From: an uncultured archaeon
GTDB lineage: Archaea; Asgardarchaeota; Thorarchaeia; Thorarchaeales; Thorarchaeaceae
Assembly: GCA_964354495.1 (NCBI GenBank)
Contig: CAYHAA010000001.1
Span: 218,075 to 250,074, forward strand
DNA: 32,000 nucleotides
Reading direction: 5' to 3'
The position numbers were made by a program, and so were the translations under genes. Under the pieces are notes generated by a model that did not search any database, was not told the DNA's origin, and saw only the letters and a list, made by a program, of their open reading frames with translations. This document shows positions 23,758 through 29,605 of the stretch, one piece after another; positions within the stretch are counted from its first letter, which is position 1, and the number at the start of each line of letters is the position of its first letter.

Positions 23758-23895
23758 TATCTGAAAATAATGAACGAATGACTCTCTAGCGGGAGCCGCG
23801 CCATAACTGCAGGAGTGCCTATTTGCATCTATCTATAAACTCCAGATGAGTGCTCTTGTCTTGTACGATTGAGTCTGTTTGGAGTGAAGAAACAG

Positions 23896-25071
23896 ATGGT
23901 CAAGACAAGAAAGCCTTCCACGCTCTGTGTTCAAGGGGCACGTTCACAGACATCGGGCCCCGCAGTAGTTCCCATCGTGCAGACATCCACTTTCGTTTTC
24001 GAGGACCAGCAGCACATGTTGGACTCTGTACAAGGGAAGACAGGTGACCATGTGTATACACGGTGGAGCAATCCTACTACCAAGAGCGTCGAAGAGAAGA
24101 TCAGTTCCCTTGAGGGGACAGAAGACACTCATGTAGTGGCATCTGGGATGGCTGCGATTACATCTGCAGTACTGGGCCTTGTAAAAGGCGGCGAGAGAAT
24201 CCTGTCGAGCGATTCCATCTATGGTGGCACGCTTCATTTCTTCAACGAGATACTGCCGCAGAATGGAATTCAGGTTGATTATGCAGATACCAATGAAGTT
24301 GCTGACGGACTGTCTGACTCTGGAGGCAAATACAGACTCTGTTTCTTCGAGACCCCAACGAATCCAACCCTAAAGATTGTGGACATCAAGAAAGTCGCTG
24401 ATGCTGCCCGTGCGACGGGAACTATTAGTATGATCGATAGCACCTTCGGGTCGCCAATCAATCAGCGCCCCTACCTGCTTGGCGTAGACCTTGTGATGCA
24501 CAGCGCGACAAAGTACTTGGGCGGTCACAGCGACATAATTGCCGGTACTATCTCTGGTTCAAAGGAAACACTAGCGAAAGTTCGGAGCGCTGCGAAGCTT
24601 CTTGGAGGGACTATGGATCCGTTCGCATCATTCTTGCTGGACCGTGGTATCAAGACTCTCAGCGTGAGAATGGAACGACATAACTCCAATGCAAAGTTCC
24701 TAGCTGAGAGGCTCGCTCGAGACAAACGAATCAGGCGAGTTCATTATCCCGGTCTCTCAAGTCACCCACAGCATGATGTTGCAAGAAGACAGATGAACGG
24801 CTTTGGAGGCATGCTGTCAGTCGACCTCGATGCTGATTTGATGGGTACTCGCAGGTTCGTAGATTCTCTTGACATATTCCTGAATGCTGTTTCACTTGGC
24901 GGAGTGGAGAGCCTAGCAAGCATTCCCGCTCTGACCACGCATTATGGGATTCGAGAAGACCTGCTCAAAGAAGCAGGAATCTGCAACTCAACTGTTCGGC
25001 TCTCAGTCGGAATTGAAGATGCAGCAGACCTGCTCGACGATCTGATGACTGCTCTAAATGTGATCAGGTGA
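23896..25071 (+). CDS. PLP-dependent trans-sulfuration enzyme (methionine gamma-lyase / cystathionine gamma-lyase/synthase family)
   Basis: YTRWSNPT, SGMAAI, ETPTNP, HSATKYLGGHSD, AVSLGGVESL, RLSVGIED. ATG 23896 behind GGAGTG. Confidence 0.93.
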   Translation: MVKTRKPSTLCVQGARSQTSGPAVVPIVQTSTFVFEDQQHMLDSVQGKTGDHVYTRWSNPTTKSVEEKISSLEGTEDTHVVASGMAAITSAVLGLVKGGERILSSDSIYGGTLHFFNEILPQNGIQVDYADTNEVADGLSDSGGKYRLCFFETPTNPTLKIVDIKKVADAARATGTISMIDSTFGSPINQRPYLLGVDLVMHSATKYLGGHSDIIAGTISGSKETLAKVRSAAKLLGGTMDPFASFLLDRGIKTLSVRMERHNSNAKFLAERLARDKRIRRVHYPGLSSHPQHDVARRQMNGFGGMLSVDLDADLMGTRRFVDSLDIFLNAVSLGGVESLASIPALTTHYGIREDLLKEAGICNSTVRLSVGIEDAADLLDDLMTALNVIR

Positions 25072-25681: not shown

Positions 25682-25966
25682 CTATCTTGTGACCCGAAGA
25701 TTGACCAGGCTTCTCCAAATCTCATGAGTTCTCTGAAGTTCCAGAATTCTCTCATAATCTGCATGATAGAGAGGTTTTCTCATGTCCCTGAGATTCGGAA
25801 CCTTTCTGCAGAATTTGCCAGACTGCAGAGTCTTGAGAGCAAGCGTGACTGTCCTCATAGCTAGTCCGCTCCTATCAGCAATCTCCTGAGGACACATTGG
25901 ACCGTCCTTTGCCAACTTGTCCAGCACTATCAGGGTGCTCTTTGTGAGATTGATTGGCAGACTCAT
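25682..25966 (-). CDS. Small winged-helix DNA-binding protein (MarR/ArsR-like)
   Basis: From ATG 25966: LTKSTLIVLDKLAKDGPMCPQEIADRSGLAMRTVTLALKTL...PNLRDMRKPLY. Confidence 0.75.
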   Translation of the reverse strand: MSLPINLTKSTLIVLDKLAKDGPMCPQEIADRSGLAMRTVTLALKTLQSGKFCRKVPNLRDMRKPLYHADYERILELQRTHEIWRSLVNLRVTR

Positions 25967-26098
25967 TCTGATCACCGGTACTCTGCACACATATAGGGAG
26001 ACAGTGTCACAATCATCACTTGCCGGCCTATGGAGCTCCCTATACTCTGTATCGAGGGTGATAATAAGGATTGCCAATAGAGTAAATTCCTTACCATA

Positions 26099-26782
26099 TC
26101 ATGTTGTAAGAAGCAGTGCATTCCTCTCTTTCCCGACAACATGCAATACTCCCATTTTCCGCAGGCAATATGCCATCTTCTGAGCTATTCGTTTGGAGAT
26201 TCCTGATGCTTCAGCAAGCTGACTTGTAGTGAAGGGTCTGTGCAGGGTGTCTGGAATGAGGTGGAGGAAGTCAGAAGGTCGTCTGTACAGGCGTCGTTCT
26301 ATTACGTCGAGGAGCCTCCTATCAATGCTACTCCAACCTCTTCTTCTCCAGCTCCCCTTGCCATCCTGTCTTCGTATCTCCTCCTCGCGTATGAGGATGA
26401 CTTCCAGGGAGAAGTTCTTGTGAAGGAAAAAGGTCGGAATACTCACAAGTTCTTCGAAGACGTCCGCATATCCTAGTCGTCTTGGAGAGCGCCTTCTGCT
26501 TAGCTCACTCTCACCCTCAGGGCTTTGGCGAACAACCCATTTCTCGACTGCTATTGGATACACAAGCCTTATCGCGTGGTTCTTCATAAGCGCAAGGAGC
26601 TTGCCTTTGATTGCGGCGAAACTCCTTGTCTGTATCTCTATGAAGAGATCATCTTTTACTACATCGACGAAAAACCCATCTACTGCCACTTCTACCTGAG
26701 TCCCGGAATCCTCATAGAGATGCTTTATTGCTGCGTGGAGTGACCGTTCCTGTAGTGTCCCGATGCCGCCTCCGTTCTCCAT
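26099..26782 (-). CDS. Hypothetical PD-(D/E)xK nuclease-like protein with C-terminal wHTH
   Basis: E..LH, VD(V)...IEIQT motif arrangement; C-terminal FTTSQLAEASGISKRIAQKMAYCLRKMG helix-turn-helix. ATG 26782 preferred; ORF track starts at 26836. Confidence 0.7.
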   Translation of the reverse strand: MENGGGIGTLQERSLHAAIKHLYEDSGTQVEVAVDGFFVDVVKDDLFIEIQTRSFAAIKGKLLALMKNHAIRLVYPIAVEKWVVRQSPEGESELSRRRSPRRLGYADVFEELVSIPTFFLHKNFSLEVILIREEEIRRQDGKGSWRRRGWSSIDRRLLDVIERRLYRRPSDFLHLIPDTLHRPFTTSQLAEASGISKRIAQKMAYCLRKMGVLHVVGKERNALLLTT

Positions 26783-26842
26783 GAGTTGAATCCAGCCCAT
26801 TTGCTTATTGATGGTTCTATAACGTGGCCAATACACAACGTT

Positions 26843-27304
26843 CTACAAATGACGGGTCCAAATCACTGCATCATCATGAGGGTAGAGACGAGGTATCTTG
26901 GCAACCTCTGAGAATCCAGTCCGAGAATAGAACTTCCTTGCACGTTCGTTCTTTCTCTCCATGAACAAGATGATGGTTCTGAGTGTGTAGCCGCGATCAG
27001 AGTAGAACTGCGAAGCGTCAGTGATCATCATCTCAACCAACTTCCTTGCTATACCCTTTCGCTGATAGGCTGAATTGACACCAAGCCCAACGAGCTCCAC
27101 GACGCCATCATCATACCCCCCTCTAGCATCCCATGTGAGTGTTCCACAGAGATGTCCATCGTGCAGAGCAAGCAATGTCCTGAATCTAGTAGTCAGTTGT
27201 TCTGCGAAAACTGCGGCACGTTCAGTGTGGTTCTCGATTTCGGATAGATACATCTCCTTCAGGCTGCCGATGTCTGCATGCGTTGCTGGTCTCATCTCTA
27301 GCAT
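26843..27304 (-). CDS. GNAT-family N-acetyltransferase
   Basis: Motif A LGVNSAYQRKGIARKL, motif B NERARKFYSRTGF. Confidence 0.9.
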   Translation of the reverse strand: MLEMRPATHADIGSLKEMYLSEIENHTERAAVFAEQLTTRFRTLLALHDGHLCGTLTWDARGGYDDGVVELVGLGVNSAYQRKGIARKLVEMMITDASQFYSDRGYTLRTIILFMERKNERARKFYSRTGFSEVAKIPRLYPHDDAVIWTRHL

Positions 27305-27352: not shown

Positions 27353-28132
27353 CTACTCAATAATGATGACAGCATCCACGAATAGTTCGTAGTCTTCATT
27401 CTCATCGAGGTTTCGAATGAGAGCCTTCTCGACCTCGATCTCTCCGTGTATCTCGAGGAGCCTTGATTGATACAAGACCTTGACAGAGGAAGCTGCGAGC
27501 TTCTCTGCGAGCTCTGGATTAAGAACAAGAGTTTCATCTGGCGTGAGAAGAATGACCCGTCCTGAGACCTCTGTCAGTTTGATTGCTGTTTCGACCGACT
27601 TATCACCAGAATAGAGAACCAGAGTTCTTCGACTCTCGAACTCCTCTAGATTGTCAACGTTCAGATAGACACCCTTGTTGAGGAACTCATCTTTTCCGAT
27701 GAGGCATTCGATTTCTTCTTCTACCTTCTCGTGTTCGTCTGGCACTACCTCTCCTCTAGCCTTTCTGTAGCTCTTGATTGCTTCGTGAAGAGCGTCTGCT
27801 GCAAGATTCGAGCAGTGCATTTTGATTGGTGGAAGTCCATCCAATTCATCTGCGACGTCCTGGCGAGTCAACTCCATTGCCTCGTCCAGCGTCATGCCTT
27901 TGACCATCTCGGTCGTCATGCTGGTAGTTGCAATGGCTGAGCCGCACCCAAAAGTTCTGAACTTGGCGTCGGTAATCTTGTCCCCGTCAATTCGGATGAA
28001 GACCTCCATGATGTCTCCACATGTGGGATTGCCAACCTTCCCGACCGCAACATCAGGACCTTCAAGCGTTCCTACGTTCCTTGGATTCCGGAAGTGGTCC
28101 AGAACCTTCTCGCTGTATTTTGTTGATTTCAT
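27353..28132 (-). CDS. iscU: IscU/NifU-type Fe-S scaffold fused to a degenerate TrxR-like Rossmann domain
   Basis: YSEKVLDHFRNPRNVG, CGD (C38), FGCGSA (C63), KMHC (C107); extra ~120-aa C-terminal domain. Confidence 0.93.
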   Translation of the reverse strand: MKSTKYSEKVLDHFRNPRNVGTLEGPDVAVGKVGNPTCGDIMEVFIRIDGDKITDAKFRTFGCGSAIATTSMTTEMVKGMTLDEAMELTRQDVADELDGLPPIKMHCSNLAADALHEAIKSYRKARGEVVPDEHEKVEEEIECLIGKDEFLNKGVYLNVDNLEEFESRRTLVLYSGDKSVETAIKLTEVSGRVILLTPDETLVLNPELAEKLAASSVKVLYQSRLLEIHGEIEVEKALIRNLDENEDYELFVDAVIIIE

Positions 28133-28144
28133 CTATTTTATCTC

Positions 28145-29308
28145 CTACTTGGGTTTGTAAATCGGAGATAGCTTTCGAAGCCGTGCGATTATTTCTGGCA
28201 CTGCCTCAAGAACGCTATCTATGTCTTGATCGGTATTGAATCTTCCAGTAGTGACTTGTAGCGAGCCGTGTGCCTCCTCATGCAAGAGACCCGTTGCGAT
28301 GAGGGTATGAGAGGGCTCGAGTGTCTTCGACGTGCATGCTGAGCCTGTAGAGATTGCTATGCCCTTGTCCTTGAAAGATAAGAGGATTGACTCTCCTTCA
28401 ACCCCATCGAATCTGACATGAGTGTTGCTTGCAAGTCGTTCTGTCGGATGACCATTGAGGTGACTGTCGGGAACCTCCTGAAGAATGTGTTTTATCATCC
28501 TGTCCCGGTACGCTGCGAAGCGTTTGACCTCCTTAGGCATCTCTTTTCTCATGATCTCCGCCGCAATCTTCATGCCCACGATTCCGGGCACATCTTCGCT
28601 CCCAGATCTGAGTCCCTGTTCCTGTCCACCGCCAATGATGATGGGGTTCACTCTGAATTTCTTTCTCATGTACAGAGCTCCAACACCTTTCGGACCATAG
28701 AGATCGTTTGAAGACAGCGCCATCAGATGAACACCGTCACGTTTCACGTCAATGGGAATCAATCCCTCGGCAGCTACGGCGTCTGAATGAAACGCAATCC
28801 CTCTCTCCTCCGCGAGTTTTCCTATCTCTCGTACTGGCTGAATCGTCCCAATCTCATTACTCGCGTAGCCCACAGAGATGAGAATCGTCTTGTCACTAAT
28901 CCTCTGCTCAAGTTTTCTGATGTTGACTTGACCATACTGATCTACTGGAACCCTTGACACCTCGAACCCGGAGCGTTCGAGATGCTTGGCGATGTTATGT
29001 ATCGATATGTGTTCAACCTCGGATATGATGATATGGTTGCCTTTCTTTTGGTTCCTCAGAGCGTACCCGATTATTCCCATATTAATCGCTTCAGTAGCGC
29101 CCGAGGTGAAGATTATCTCGTCCTCGTCTGCATTGATGAATTGAGCTATCTTTCTCCTGCTCTCTTCAAGCGCCTCAGTACCTTCATCTCCGATACTGTG
29201 TAAGGCTGATGGATTTCCATACTTCTCACTGAAGTACGGTAACATACCCTCGACCACACGAGGGTCTACCGGTTTTGCACTCTGATAATCAAGATACACC
29301 TGCTTCAT
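28145..29308 (-). CDS. iscS: Cysteine desulfurase (IscS/NifS group I)
   Basis: YLDYQS, FTSGATE, HSDAV, catalytic STGSACTS; 12 nt upstream of iscU. Confidence 0.95.
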   Translation of the reverse strand: MKQVYLDYQSAKPVDPRVVEGMLPYFSEKYGNPSALHSIGDEGTEALEESRRKIAQFINADEDEIIFTSGATEAINMGIIGYALRNQKKGNHIIISEVEHISIHNIAKHLERSGFEVSRVPVDQYGQVNIRKLEQRISDKTILISVGYASNEIGTIQPVREIGKLAEERGIAFHSDAVAAEGLIPIDVKRDGVHLMALSSNDLYGPKGVGALYMRKKFRVNPIIIGGGQEQGLRSGSEDVPGIVGMKIAAEIMRKEMPKEVKRFAAYRDRMIKHILQEVPDSHLNGHPTERLASNTHVRFDGVEGESILLSFKDKGIAISTGSACTSKTLEPSHTLIATGLLHEEAHGSLQVTTGRFNTDQDIDSVLEAVPEIIARLRKLSPIYKPK

Positions 29309-29350: not shown

Positions 29351-29605
29351 CTACCCTTTCCTTCGTCGTACGAGTATTTTCTGGACTCCATCGGGGAGTC
29401 TGCGAACACTGATGAGTTCATGACCCGTTCTTCTGCAGAATCTCTTGATATCTTCCTCTGCGGCTGGATCATCTGCGAGGACTTCGAGGACTTGGCCCGG
29501 TTTGATACTCTCTATAGCCTGCTTGGTCTGGAAAAGTGGCTGAGGACAAAAGAGCCCCACACAGTCTAAAGTTTCGTCTGCTTTCACTTCTGACACTGAC
29601 ATCAC
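29351..29605 (-). CDS. tusA: TusA/SirA sulfur-carrier protein
   Basis: LDCVGLFCPQP, GQVLEVLADDPAAEEDI. Confidence 0.92.
   Translation of the reverse strand: MMSVSEVKADETLDCVGLFCPQPLFQTKQAIESIKPGQVLEVLADDPAAEEDIKRFCRRTGHELISVRRLPDGVQKILVRRRKG

What the first reader, a model, noticed from the sequence alone, without database searches (positions are those of the whole stretch)
27353..28132. IscU fused to a catalytically dead thioredoxin-reductase NADPH domain
Seen: after a complete IscU (residues 1-125) and an acidic linker, residues 143-259 (27706 down to 27353) read GKDEFLNKGVYLNVDN...RRTLVLYSGDKSVETAIKL...RVILL...EIHGEIEVEKALIRNLDENEDYELFVDAVII. This tracks the low-Mr TrxR consensus GEEEFLGKGVSYCATC...KKVAVVGGGNSALEEALYL...KVYLI...EIKGDGKVESVVLKN..TGEEKELEVDGVFI (from memory). 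The CxxC and GGGxS motifs are lost, the domain is very acidic, and no FAD domain is present. Established: that TrxR domain carries the thioredoxin-docking surface, and minimal IscS-IscU systems lack a dedicated ferredoxin. Inference: a repurposed docking domain that recruits a reductant or client to the scaffold. I do not recall this fusion being described.
Basis: partly seen in the sequence, partly recalled or inferred. Interest (0 to 1): 0.8.

Follow-up and report, generated by a model that had tools for sequence, protein, structure and literature searches.

The report
IscU scaffold with dead reductase domain
This gene joins an iron-sulfur cluster scaffold (IscU) to a non-catalytic remnant of a thioredoxin-reductase-like enzyme; the fusion is conserved in hundreds of anaerobic archaea and bacteria, and the remnant probably acts as a built-in clamp on the partner protein IscS rather than as a redox enzyme.

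Summary
ORF 27353-28132(-) encodes a complete IscU (residues 1-125), a fast-evolving acidic linker, and a 114-aa domain (146-259). That domain is homologous in sequence and fold to the NADPH domain of low-Mr TrxR and TrxR-type FNR. It has no FAD domain, no Gly loop, no HRR motif and no CxxC.

It is not a one-off. The scan had already flagged this fusion on other Asgard DNA. It is the third gene of a conserved module, tusA - iscS(PLP-Lys->Asp) - iscU::X. I found the module in 218 of 400 Asgard genomes and in at least 237 species genomes overall, including many bacterial phyla.

Full-length IscU-TrxR-like flavoprotein fusions exist in Methanoperedens (followed there by a flavodoxin gene) and in Jordarchaeia. 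Their NADPH domains group with the short form, which suggests the short form is a remnant that lost its flavin half.

A controlled complex prediction puts the remnant's most conserved face on IscS beside the IscU Cys38 loop (ipSAE 0.70, best control 0.00). IscS Lys132 and Ile337 in that footprint are fixed only where the domain is present.

My reading is a tethered, non-redox clamp or lid on the IscS-IscU assembly site, not a thioredoxin recruiter. This is unproven. I found no paper describing it.

The parts
27758..28132 (-). IscU scaffold domain (residues 1-125), with ligands C38, D40, C63, H106, C107 and the LPPIK motif
   Evidence: Pfam NifU_N E 5e-48. TIGR03419 scores 193.9 bits against a cut-off of 187.9. 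Foldseek to IscU structures gives 63-66% identity and rmsd 1.6-2.1 A. Coordinates verified.
27698..27757 (-). Acidic linker (residues 126-145). It is disordered in the model and evolves fast.
   Evidence: pLDDT is below 50 for residues 132-143. Net charge is -6. dN/dS is 0.24, against 0.03-0.05 for the two domains.
27356..27697 (-). C-terminal domain (residues 146-259), a remnant of a TrxR/FNR-type pyridine-nucleotide (NADPH) domain
   Evidence: establish homology and fold. dN/dS is 0.05. The short forms are monophyletic at 100/100 support.
27596..27619 (-). Degenerate dinucleotide loop VLYSGDKS, in place of VxGGGxSA
   Evidence: Alignment with TrxR-like proteins and with the fusion family. 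Coordinates verified.
27533..27559 (-). Strand beta2, RVILLT, followed by PDE where NADPH enzymes carry HRR (the 2'-phosphate site)
27374..27412 (-). Conserved acidic hairpin NLDENEDYELFVD (residues 241-253), the core of the predicted IscS/IscU-binding face (D243, E244, Y248, L250, F251)
   Evidence: Invariant or nearly invariant in 32 diverse fusions. Lies in the predicted interface. Also present in full-length fusions.
28145..29308 (-). IscS paralogue with Asp202 in place of the PLP-binding Lys (SSNDLYGPKG). Cys325 is kept. Stop codon lies 12 nt upstream of the fusion gene.
   Evidence: Closest solved relative is A. fulgidus IscS2 4EB5 (E 4e-138), which has the same SSND motif. The motif is invariant in 19 plus 68 partner IscS. 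The Asp codon is at 28703-28705.
29351..29605 (-). TusA-like sulfur carrier with a CPQP motif, the first gene of the module
   Evidence: Pfam TusA E 2.1e-25. Present in all examined loci whose flanks include IscS, with few exceptions.

Best explanation
The protein is a two-domain Fe-S scaffold. A complete IscU is tethered by a floppy acidic linker to a redox-dead remnant of the NADPH domain of a CxxC-less TrxR-like flavoprotein.

It is the third gene of a conserved module: tusA - iscS(Lys->Asp, of the Archaeoglobus IscS2 type) - iscU::X.

The remnant most likely works as a built-in clamp or lid. Its conserved face comprises R169, R192, K218, E235, D243, E244, Y248, L250 and F251. That face docks on IscS at E97, P121-R136 and I337-E345. 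These positions correspond to E. coli 125-140 and 340-348, next to R340 and E347. The docked domain also touches the IscU loop G34-C38, which carries the first cluster ligand. This would hold the scaffold on the lysine-less IscS and cover the assembly site. The pocket borders the one used by CyaY, IscX and ThiI in E. coli.

Ancestrally, the same docking would have positioned a flavin module able to feed electrons to IscU. Full-length forms with intact GGGNSA and HRK motifs survive in Methanoperedens, where a flavodoxin gene follows. After the FAD half was lost, only the structural or regulatory docking function remained.

What is shown: homology, fold, motif loss, distribution, purifying selection and operon context. 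What is inferred: the binding site (a prediction backed by conservation and co-variation), the clamp/lid role, and the direction of evolution.
For: Identity of the domain: profile against PDB E 1.2e-14, VIA Z 18-19, Foldseek rmsd 1.5 A.

Dead redox site: the Gly loop and HRR motif are degenerate in every lineage. There is no FAD domain in the ORF and none encoded separately.

Under selection: dN/dS is 0.05 for the domain and 0.24 for the linker.

Distribution:
- 218 of 400 Asgard genomes.
- 237 GTDB species genomes, including Desulfobacteraceae, Syntrophus, Coriobacteriia, Thermoleophilia, Spirochaetota, Aminicenantes, WOR-3 and others, some on Mb-size contigs.
- Of the 80 loci examined, 75 carry IscU and the domain in one ORF. 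The other 5 are cut by contig ends or by frameshifts in the linker. Where the flanks include IscS, it reads SSND-type in all that could be read, and TusA is present with one exception.

Origin: full-length NifU_N + Pyr_redox_2 fusions exist (about 90 clusters). A tree branch with 98/97 support separates 37 of 38 stand-alone TrxR-like domains from the short and full-length fusions together. The full-length forms also sit beside SSND-type IscS, and in one case upstream of a flavodoxin gene.

Docking: the complex IscS x2 + IscU + C-domain scored ipSAE 0.70 (three runs: 0.67, 0.72, 0.70), with a best control of 0.00. That mark was reached by 58 of 80 solved complexes and 2 of 110 mismatched pairs. 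Partner pLDDT was at least 87, and at least 87% of contacts agreed between runs. No complex of an NADPH domain with IscS has been solved, so recall from a known structure is unlikely.

Support for the predicted interface:
- Interface residues of the domain are more conserved than the rest (0.83 against 0.65, p 5e-4).
- On IscS, K132 is Lys in 87 of 87 short-fusion partners and 2 of 2 full-length partners. It is Ala or Leu in 7 of 7 close SSND/SANS relatives that pair with a plain IscU, and Phe in A. fulgidus.
- Only 4 of 387 IscS columns behave in this way. Two of them (K132, I337) lie in the 14-residue footprint and a third lies within 3 residues of it (Fisher p 0.007).
- E. coli R340, which corresponds to I337, is needed for CyaY, IscX and ThiI binding, and E347 contacts IscU (PMC2854127).
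Against: The binding is a prediction, not a measurement. The job used my own alignments and four chains, which differs from the tool's calibration set, so its counts hold only roughly.

The alignments given to the predictor carry the same conservation signal that I then read off the interface.

The fused-system IscS may form one clade. If so, signature residues such as K132 could be inherited together rather than selected by contact. There are only 7 unfused comparators, plus A. fulgidus.

I could not check whether the 18-residue tether can reach the docked position. I also could not check whether the FAD half of the full-length forms would fit in that pose.

The basic patch of IscS (E. coli R220, R223, R225), which the acidic character of the domain first suggested as a target, is not in the predicted footprint.

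What docking achieves, whether stability, gating, iron handling or exclusion of TusA, is not addressed by any result here.
Confidence: 0.55

Rival explanations
1. The dead domain keeps the thioredoxin-docking surface of TrxR and recruits a thioredoxin-like reductant or a client apoprotein to the scaffold.
For: The fold is that of the TrxR NADPH domain. The genome encodes a genuine TrxR with CATC, GGGDTA and HRRDELR, so thioredoxin-system partners probably exist. After the predicted docking on IscS, the former CxxC face would stay exposed (inference).
Against: The closest relatives, both full-length fusions and stand-alone proteins, are CxxC-less FNR-type proteins, so the ancestor probably never bound thioredoxin. 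The segment that aligns with the CxxC helix (residues about 155-166) varies across the family. The invariant polar residues lie on another face. No thioredoxin gene is part of the conserved module.
Confidence: 0.1
2. A tethered, frataxin-like iron handler. The acidic residues E227, E233, E235, D243, E244 and D253 bind Fe(II) and deliver it to the IscU site. This could coexist with docking.
For: The domain has pI 4.46. It carries an invariant acidic cluster. D243 and E244 are predicted to lie against the IscU G34-C38 loop. The predicted location borders the CyaY/IscX footprint on IscS.
Against: The fold is unrelated to frataxin. Several of the acidic residues are predicted to form salt bridges with IscS (E235 with K132), which would leave them unavailable for metal binding. 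There is no direct evidence of metal binding.
Confidence: 0.12
3. The domain homodimerises and holds two IscU domains together, which would favour reductive coupling of two [2Fe-2S] clusters into a [4Fe-4S] cluster.
For: Holo-IscU dimers are proposed intermediates of [4Fe-4S] formation (PMC13066941). A tethered dimeriser would raise the local concentration of IscU.
Against: This was not tested here. In TrxR, the dimer forms through the FAD domains, not the NADPH domains. The conserved face is already accounted for by the predicted IscS contact and by the matching IscS signature.
Confidence: 0.08
4. The domain still binds a nucleotide such as NAD(P)H or ADP, and acts as a metabolic sensor that tunes cluster assembly.
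For: A Rossmann-like beta-alpha-beta core is retained. One Gly of the loop (G176) is nearly invariant, and an acidic residue follows strand beta2 in many members.
Against: The first Gly of GxGxxA is replaced by Tyr, His, Asp, Glu or Phe. The whole loop varies between lineages, and G176 itself is lost in some (YKDNKS, HRSDES, EFDQKS). The HRR motif is gone. A ligand site under selection would not drift like this.
Confidence: 0.07
5. A neutral relic. The domain is left over from a decayed flavoprotein and is kept only because deleting it would destabilise the protein.
For: It is clearly derived from a larger enzyme that has lost its catalytic parts.
Against: dN/dS is 0.05, close to that of IscU itself, while the linker runs at 0.24. 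Exposed polar residues are invariant across Bacteria and Archaea. The domain is retained in at least 237 species genomes.
Confidence: 0.03

Closest known systems
Archaeoglobus fulgidus IscS2-IscU (PDB 4EB5, 4EB7, 4HVK; D199K variant 4R5F)
   Same: The window's IscS is its closest solved relative (E 4e-138). It shares the SSND motif, with Asp in place of the PLP lysine, and keeps the loop Cys. The IscU is adjacent and 56-59% identical. The A. fulgidus protein has no desulfurase activity and is thought to act as a co-scaffold that supplies a Cys ligand (PMC8918507).
   Different: A. fulgidus IscU has no C-terminal domain. At positions 97, 123, 132 and 342, where the fused systems carry E, D, K and L, its IscS has A, G, F and K.
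Low-Mr thioredoxin reductase and TrxR-type ferredoxin-NADP+ reductase (2ZBW, 3LZW, 3F8D; TIGR01292)
   Same: Residues 146-259 are homologous to their NADPH domain and superpose on it. The match covers exactly the inserted domain, 2ZBW residues 131-247.
   Different: There is no FAD domain, no GxGxxA loop, no HRR motif and no CxxC. It therefore cannot be an oxidoreductase. TIGR01292 scores 40.5 bits against a cut-off of 343.
Full-length IscU-TrxR-like fusions (443-448 aa) of Ca. Methanoperedens / Methanosarcinales and Ca. Jordarchaeaceae. These are database entries annotated as NifU, IscU 2 or thioredoxin reductase.
   Same: They have the same IscU, the same family-specific VEK...(N/D)L.E(D/N)E.(F/Y).L.VD hairpin, the same SSND-type IscS neighbour, and the same K132 and L342 on that IscS. 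Their NADPH domains group with the short form.
   Different: They keep both halves of the FAD domain. The Methanoperedens forms also keep GGGNSA and HRK, and one locus has a flavodoxin gene directly downstream. They are probably still redox-active.
NifU (three-domain nitrogen-fixation scaffold, TIGR02000)
   Same: An IscU-type N-terminal scaffold is extended in the same polypeptide by accessory domains, one of which is redox-related.
   Different: NifU's extra domains are a [2Fe-2S] ferredoxin-like domain and an Nfu domain, and neither is present here. TIGR02000 matches only residues 5-143 and scores 151 bits against a cut-off of 273.
Frataxin/CyaY, IscX and ferredoxin as accessory proteins of IscS-IscU
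   Same: These are small acidic proteins that dock on IscS next to IscU and the Cys loop. The predicted footprint includes the equivalent of E. coli R340, a residue needed for CyaY, IscX and ThiI binding.
   Different: The fold is unrelated. The domain is covalently tethered rather than free. The predicted footprint does not include the R220/R223/R225 patch those proteins use (residue mapping is my own).

Membership tests
IscU / NifU_N scaffold (PF01592, TIGR03419) | Profile match above the curated cut-off | tested here: met
   PF01592 E 5e-48, 162.9 bits against a cut-off of 22. TIGR03419 193.9 bits against 187.9.
IscU / NifU_N scaffold (PF01592, TIGR03419) | Three Cys ligands plus the Asp and His of the assembly site | tested here: met
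   C38, D40, C63, H106 and C107 are invariant in 32 fusions.
IscU / NifU_N scaffold (PF01592, TIGR03419) | IscU fold | tested here: met
   Foldseek to 7C8M, 3LVL and 4EB5 gives TM by target 0.84-0.91 and rmsd 1.1-2.1 A.
Low-Mr thioredoxin reductase (TIGR01292) | FAD-binding domain (N- and C-terminal halves, GxGxxG) | tested here: not met
   The ORF ends at the last strand of the NADPH domain. Only profile positions 119-232 of 300 are matched. No FAD-only ORF exists in the genome.
Low-Mr thioredoxin reductase (TIGR01292) | NADPH site: GxGxxA loop and HRRxxxR | tested here: not met
   YSGDKS and TPDETL stand at the aligned positions, and the region is degenerate across the family.
Low-Mr thioredoxin reductase (TIGR01292) | Redox-active CxxC in the NADPH domain | tested here: not met
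   YLNV stands at the aligned position and the domain contains no Cys.
Low-Mr thioredoxin reductase (TIGR01292) | NADPH-domain fold | tested here: met
   Z 18-19 to TrxR, AhpF and FNR chains, rmsd 1.7-2.1 A over about 120 residues.
TrxR-type ferredoxin/flavodoxin-NADP+ reductase | Complete TrxR-like flavoprotein without CxxC | tested here: not met
   It lacks CxxC, as they do, and the best PDB hit is 2ZBW. However, the FAD domain and the NADPH motifs are absent.
NifU proper (TIGR02000) | Central [2Fe-2S] ferredoxin-like domain and C-terminal Nfu domain | tested here: not met
   151 bits against a cut-off of 273, and the match covers residues 5-143 only.
Archaeoglobus-type IscS(Lys-less)-IscU system | IscS with Asp in place of the PLP lysine, loop Cys retained, encoded next to IscU | tested here: met
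   SSNDLYGPKG and C325. 12-nt gap to the IscU gene.
Archaeoglobus-type IscS(Lys-less)-IscU system | No cysteine desulfurase activity; PMP bound instead of PLP | not testable with these tools
   Known for the A. fulgidus protein only (PMC8918507).
Frataxin / CyaY | Frataxin alpha-beta sandwich fold | tested here: not met
   The fold is a Rossmann-type NADPH domain. Only the predicted location on IscS resembles frataxin's.

The most novel reading that the evidence does not exclude
TusA, a PLP-less IscS and IscU::X together form a distinct and so far uncharacterised Fe-S (or sulfur-trafficking) machine of anaerobes, spread across Asgard archaea and more than ten bacterial phyla. In it, sulfur arrives as a TusA persulfide or as sulfide rather than through IscS catalysis. 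IscS serves only as a co-scaffold. The dead reductase domain is an obligatory third structural element that closes the assembly chamber at the site where frataxin or ferredoxin act in ISC. The domain would be the fossil of an ancestral, self-contained IscU-flavoprotein that reduced its own substrate.
Probability: 0.3. Interest if true: 0.8.

Novelty: new variant of a known kind. Interest (0 to 1): 0.62.

Why it matters
IscU is normally a stand-alone protein of about 130 aa. Its helpers (ferredoxin, frataxin, IscX, chaperones) are separate proteins, and most are missing from the minimal archaeal systems, whose working is largely untested.

Here a helper-like module is fused to the scaffold. It is under strong selection and is always paired with a catalytically dead IscS and a TusA carrier. 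In this Thorarchaeota genome it is the only IscU. It is also present in most Loki-type (Promethearchaeota) genomes, the lineage closest to eukaryotes, for which an Asgard link of NFS1 and ISCU has recently been argued (PMC12872458).

The series from intact flavoprotein fusion to stripped remnant offers a natural experiment on how electron supply to IscU can be built in and then abandoned. The predicted interface gives concrete residues to mutate: IscS K132, L342 and I337, and domain E235, K218 and F251.

Tried and rejected
1. Split-enzyme idea, in which the remnant pairs with a separately encoded FAD domain. A search of the genome with the flavoprotein part of a full-length fusion found only complete TrxR-like ORFs of 313-338 aa and larger flavoproteins. 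No FAD-only ORF was found. Rejected.

2. Docking on the IscS arginine patch (E. coli R220, R223, R225). I expected this from the domain's acidity. Those residues are not in the predicted footprint. Dropped.

3. Natural split forms. Two actinomycete loci appeared to have the domain as a separate ORF. Reading the frames showed a frameshift inside the linker, which is probably an assembly error.

4. Pfam alone does not recognise the domain (E about 0.05-0.09).

5. The first homologue search returned only Thorarchaeota, because its word index misses distant relatives. The wider range came from the genome scans and the Atlas.

6. The full-length AF2 model gave no confident packing between the two domains (pTM 0.51), so it says nothing on an intramolecular contact.

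7. Literature. Six searches found no description of the fusion. The key survey of minimal Fe-S systems (Garcia et al. 2022, cited as ref 67 in PMC13066941) is not held, so I cannot exclude that its supplement lists the architecture.

8. Not tried: homodimer prediction, a complex of the domain with TusA, a complex of a full-length fusion with IscS, and expression data.
Full report
THE OBSERVATION

The ORF 27353..28132 (minus strand, 259 aa) exists as described, and the quoted peptide is correct. Residues 5-126 are a complete IscU. They match Pfam NifU_N at E 5e-48 and NCBIfam TIGR03419 above its cut-off. They are 63-66% identical to crystallised archaeal IscU. The ligands C38, D40, C63, H106 and C107 are all present.

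Residues 126-145 form an acidic linker that the AF2 model leaves disordered (pLDDT below 50 for residues 132-143).

Pfam does not recognise residues 146-259 (E about 0.05-0.09), but stronger tests settle their origin:
- phmmer against PDB gives E 1.5e-6 to residues 131-247 of 2ZBW, followed by a long list of TrxR, TrxR-type FNR and AhpF chains.
- A profile of the family gives E 1.2e-14.
- TIGR01292 gives E 1.4e-10 over profile positions 119-232.
- A confident model of the domain (pLDDT 88.8) superposes on NADPH domains at Z 18-19, and Foldseek gives rmsd 1.5 A.

The domain is acidic (pI 4.46, net charge -12). At the aligned positions GGGxSA reads YSGDKS, HRR reads TPD, and the CxxC position reads YLNV.

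NOT A ONE-OFF

A word-indexed search found 97 clusters of the same 258-263-aa architecture, all named Thorarchaeota or Sifarchaeia. Scanning 400 genomes of the phylum with a profile of the domain found it in 218. That includes 72 of 85 genomes in the window's family and 115 of 135 in a large family whose members are titled Promethearchaeota. It was absent from several other families.

A pattern scan of one genome per GTDB species found 237 genomes. The best 80 include Promethearchaeota, Thor-, Hod-, Hermod- and Odinarchaeota. They also include many Bacteria: Desulfobacteraceae, Syntrophus and Syntrophobacterales, Coriobacteriia, Thermoleophilia, Gaiellales, Spirochaetota, Aminicenantes, Fibrobacterota, Aerophobetes, Zixibacteria, WOR-3 and Eubacteriales. 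Several of these lie on Mb-size contigs.

In 75 of those 80 loci the domain shares one ORF with IscU. The 5 exceptions are cut by contig ends or by frameshifts in the linker.

Within the window's genus, dN/dS is 0.03 for IscU, 0.24 for the linker and 0.05 for the domain. dS is near saturation, so these values are rough.

In the window's own genome (97.7% complete) the fusion is the only NifU_N gene. Loki-type genomes carry plain IscU copies as well.

Earlier first-stage notes of this scan had flagged the same fusion in other Asgard genomes.

CONTEXT

The gene lies 12 nt downstream of an IscS and 1.2 kb downstream of a TusA.

That IscS is the closest relative of A. fulgidus IscS2 (E 4e-138). 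It shares the SSND motif, with Asp in place of the PLP-binding lysine, and keeps the loop Cys. The A. fulgidus protein has no desulfurase activity and is thought to act as a co-scaffold (PMC8918507).

The Asp is invariant in 19 diverse Asgard partner IscS. In 68 further partner IscS from Bacteria and Archaea it is Asp in 63 and Glu in 5. Among the 80 scan loci, TusA is present wherever the flanks include IscS, with one exception.

The unit is therefore tusA - iscS(Lys->Asp) - iscU::X. The downstream GNAT and the 245-aa ORF are not conserved neighbours.

The genome also encodes a SufB-like protein and several other class-V aminotransferases. It has a genuine TrxR with CATC, GGGDTA and HRRDELR.

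ORIGIN

The exhaustive profile search and the Atlas pointed to 443-448-aa proteins that combine NifU_N with a complete Pyr_redox_2 flavoprotein. About 90 clusters are named Ca. Methanoperedens or Methanosarcinales, and a second group is named Ca. Jordarchaeaceae. One Asgard family in the scan has 449-475-aa NifU_N ORFs.

These full-length fusions lack CxxC (they read GVYYFV, as in TrxR-type FNR). The Methanoperedens forms keep GGGNSA and HRK. Both groups share the short form's hairpin motif VEK..(N/D)L.E(D/N)E.(F/Y).L.VD.

Their neighbours again include an SSND-type IscS, with TusA in the Jord-type locus. In the Methanoperedens-type locus a flavodoxin gene starts 2 nt after the fusion.

In a tree of 69 NADPH domains the short forms are monophyletic (100/100) on a long stem. 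A branch with 98/97 support separates 37 of 38 stand-alone TrxR-like proteins from the short and full-length fusions together. The Jord-type fusions are the nearest neighbours of the short forms, but only weakly (56/23).

The simplest reading is that IscU was fused once to a CxxC-less TrxR-like flavoprotein, and the short form arose by loss of both FAD segments. On this reading the CxxC was not lost here; it was never present in the immediate ancestor. The direction of change is inferred, because the tree is unrooted.

WHAT THE REMNANT DOES

Nucleotide binding is unlikely. The first Gly of the loop is Tyr, His, Asp, Glu or Phe. The loop drifts between lineages, even losing the remaining Gly, and HRR is gone.

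A split enzyme is unlikely, because no FAD-only ORF exists in the genome.

The invariant residues across 32 diverse fusions are R169, R192, K218, E235, E244, Y248 and D253, plus structural Gly, Ala and Leu positions.

The results were:
- ipSAE 0.70 (three runs: 0.67, 0.72, 0.70), with a best control of 0.00. That mark was reached by 58 of 80 solved complexes and 2 of 110 mismatched pairs.
- Partner pLDDT at least 87, and at least 87% of contacts shared between runs.
- The tool notes that its counts hold only roughly, because my own alignments and four chains were used.

No complex of an NADPH domain with IscS has been solved, so recall from a known structure is unlikely.

The predicted interface uses these residues:
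- Domain: 167, 169, 191-192, 194, 218, 220-221, 231-232, 235-236, 241, 243-244 and 248-252.
- IscS: 97, 121, 123-124, 132, 135-136, 337-340, 342-343 and 345.
- IscU: 34-35 and 37-38, beside ligand C38.

Predicted pairs include K132 with E235, E345 with K218 and H343 with Y248. F251 sits in a pocket formed by E97, P121 and I337-G340.

The domain's interface residues are more conserved than the rest of the domain (0.83 against 0.65, p 5e-4). The predictor saw the same alignment, so this is not fully independent.

A more independent test compares IscS from systems with and without the domain:
- K132 is Lys in 87 of 87 short-fusion partners and in both full-length partners. It is Ala or Leu in seven close SSND/SANS IscS of Asgard families whose IscU is plain, and Phe in A. 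fulgidus.
- Position 342 is Leu, Ile or Val in nearly all fused systems. In the unfused ones it is Ser, Asp, Pro, Asn or Lys.
- Of 387 IscS columns, only four are at least 93% fixed in fused systems and never carry that residue in the seven unfused relatives: T44, K132, T335 and I337. Two lie in the 14-residue footprint and a third is within three residues of it (Fisher p 0.007).

Shared descent of the fused systems could inflate this signal, and the comparators are few.

Mapped onto E. coli numbering (my own mapping from H104 and C328), the footprint covers residues 125-140 and 340-348. R340E weakens CyaY, IscX, ThiI and TusA binding, and Glu347 contacts IscU (PMC2854127). The predicted site therefore borders the pocket used by the classical accessory proteins. 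It does not include the R220/R223/R225 patch.

INTERPRETATION

I read the domain as a tethered, non-redox clamp or lid that docks on the IscS-IscU junction over the assembly site.

The K132 and L342 signature is already present next to the full-length fusions. That suggests the docking predates the loss of the flavin half and originally oriented an electron-donating module. This last step is inference.

The specific route does not: the thioredoxin-docking face is the less conserved one, and the lineage has no CxxC history.

Iron handling by the acidic cluster, homodimerisation and nucleotide sensing remain open at lower odds. A neutral relic is very unlikely given the strength of selection.

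NOVELTY

Databases name these proteins simply NifU or IscU. NCBIfam has no model for the domain or for the architecture. The papers I could search do not describe it. The main phylogenomic survey of minimal Fe-S systems is not held, so I could not check it.

I classify the finding as a new variant of a known kind: an IscS-IscU (MIS/ISC-type) system with a previously uncharacterised built-in accessory domain.

Noticed in passing
window 28145-29308 (-), Asp codon at 28703-28705: The IscS next to the fusion has Asp in place of the PLP-binding lysine (SSNDLYGPKG), like the inactive A. fulgidus IscS2. This holds for every partner IscS examined. Five of 68 have Glu instead of Asp.
   Followed up: yes
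window 29351-29605 (-): A TusA-like carrier (CPQP motif) lies 42 nt upstream of IscS. In several other genomes a gap of 330-430 nt separates TusA from IscS. That is enough room for the DsrE-like gene mentioned in earlier notes of this scan. The gap is absent here.
   Followed up: partly
L025:1925-2356 (metagenome contig carrying the full-length fusion P0126): A flavodoxin gene (Pfam Flavodoxin_1, E 1.5e-17) starts 2 nt after the full-length IscU-TrxR-like fusion. This suggests the intact flavoprotein module works with flavodoxin.
   Followed up: partly
L110, L111 (Asgard family f29, genomes of 1.3-1.4 Mb): The IscS next to a plain IscU and a TusA reads SANSIY at the PLP-lysine position. This is Lys->Ser, a second kind of lysine-less IscS.
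   Followed up: no
L093 and L104 (actinomycete MAGs): IscU and the C-terminal domain lie in different frames, with the shift inside the linker. This is probably a homopolymer error of assembly rather than a natural split.
   Followed up: partly
window 26099-26836 (-): A 245-aa ORF with no family match, only a faint Rrf2-like helix-turn-helix at its C-terminus (E 0.18). It is not a conserved neighbour of the module.
   Followed up: no
window 26843-27304 (-): A GNAT acetyltransferase lies 48 nt downstream of the fusion on the same strand. It is not found next to the module in six other genomes.
   Followed up: partly
window 23869-25071 (+) and 25682-26077 (-): A Cys/Met-metabolism PLP enzyme (Pfam E 2.9e-125) and a small MarR-like regulator (just below the Pfam cut-off) lie near the Fe-S module. 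A link with sulfur metabolism is possible but was not tested.
   Followed up: no
G135 and G138 (family f21, single contigs of 4.4 and 6.0 Mb); L017: Two closed Loki-type genomes carry the module. Their sizes match those I recall for the cultured Lokiarchaeia strains, which would make the protein experimentally accessible.
   Followed up: no
Asgard family f22 genomes: These genomes carry 2-6 NifU_N genes each, with plain 126-147-aa IscU copies beside the fusion. The window's genus has only the fusion.
   Followed up: no
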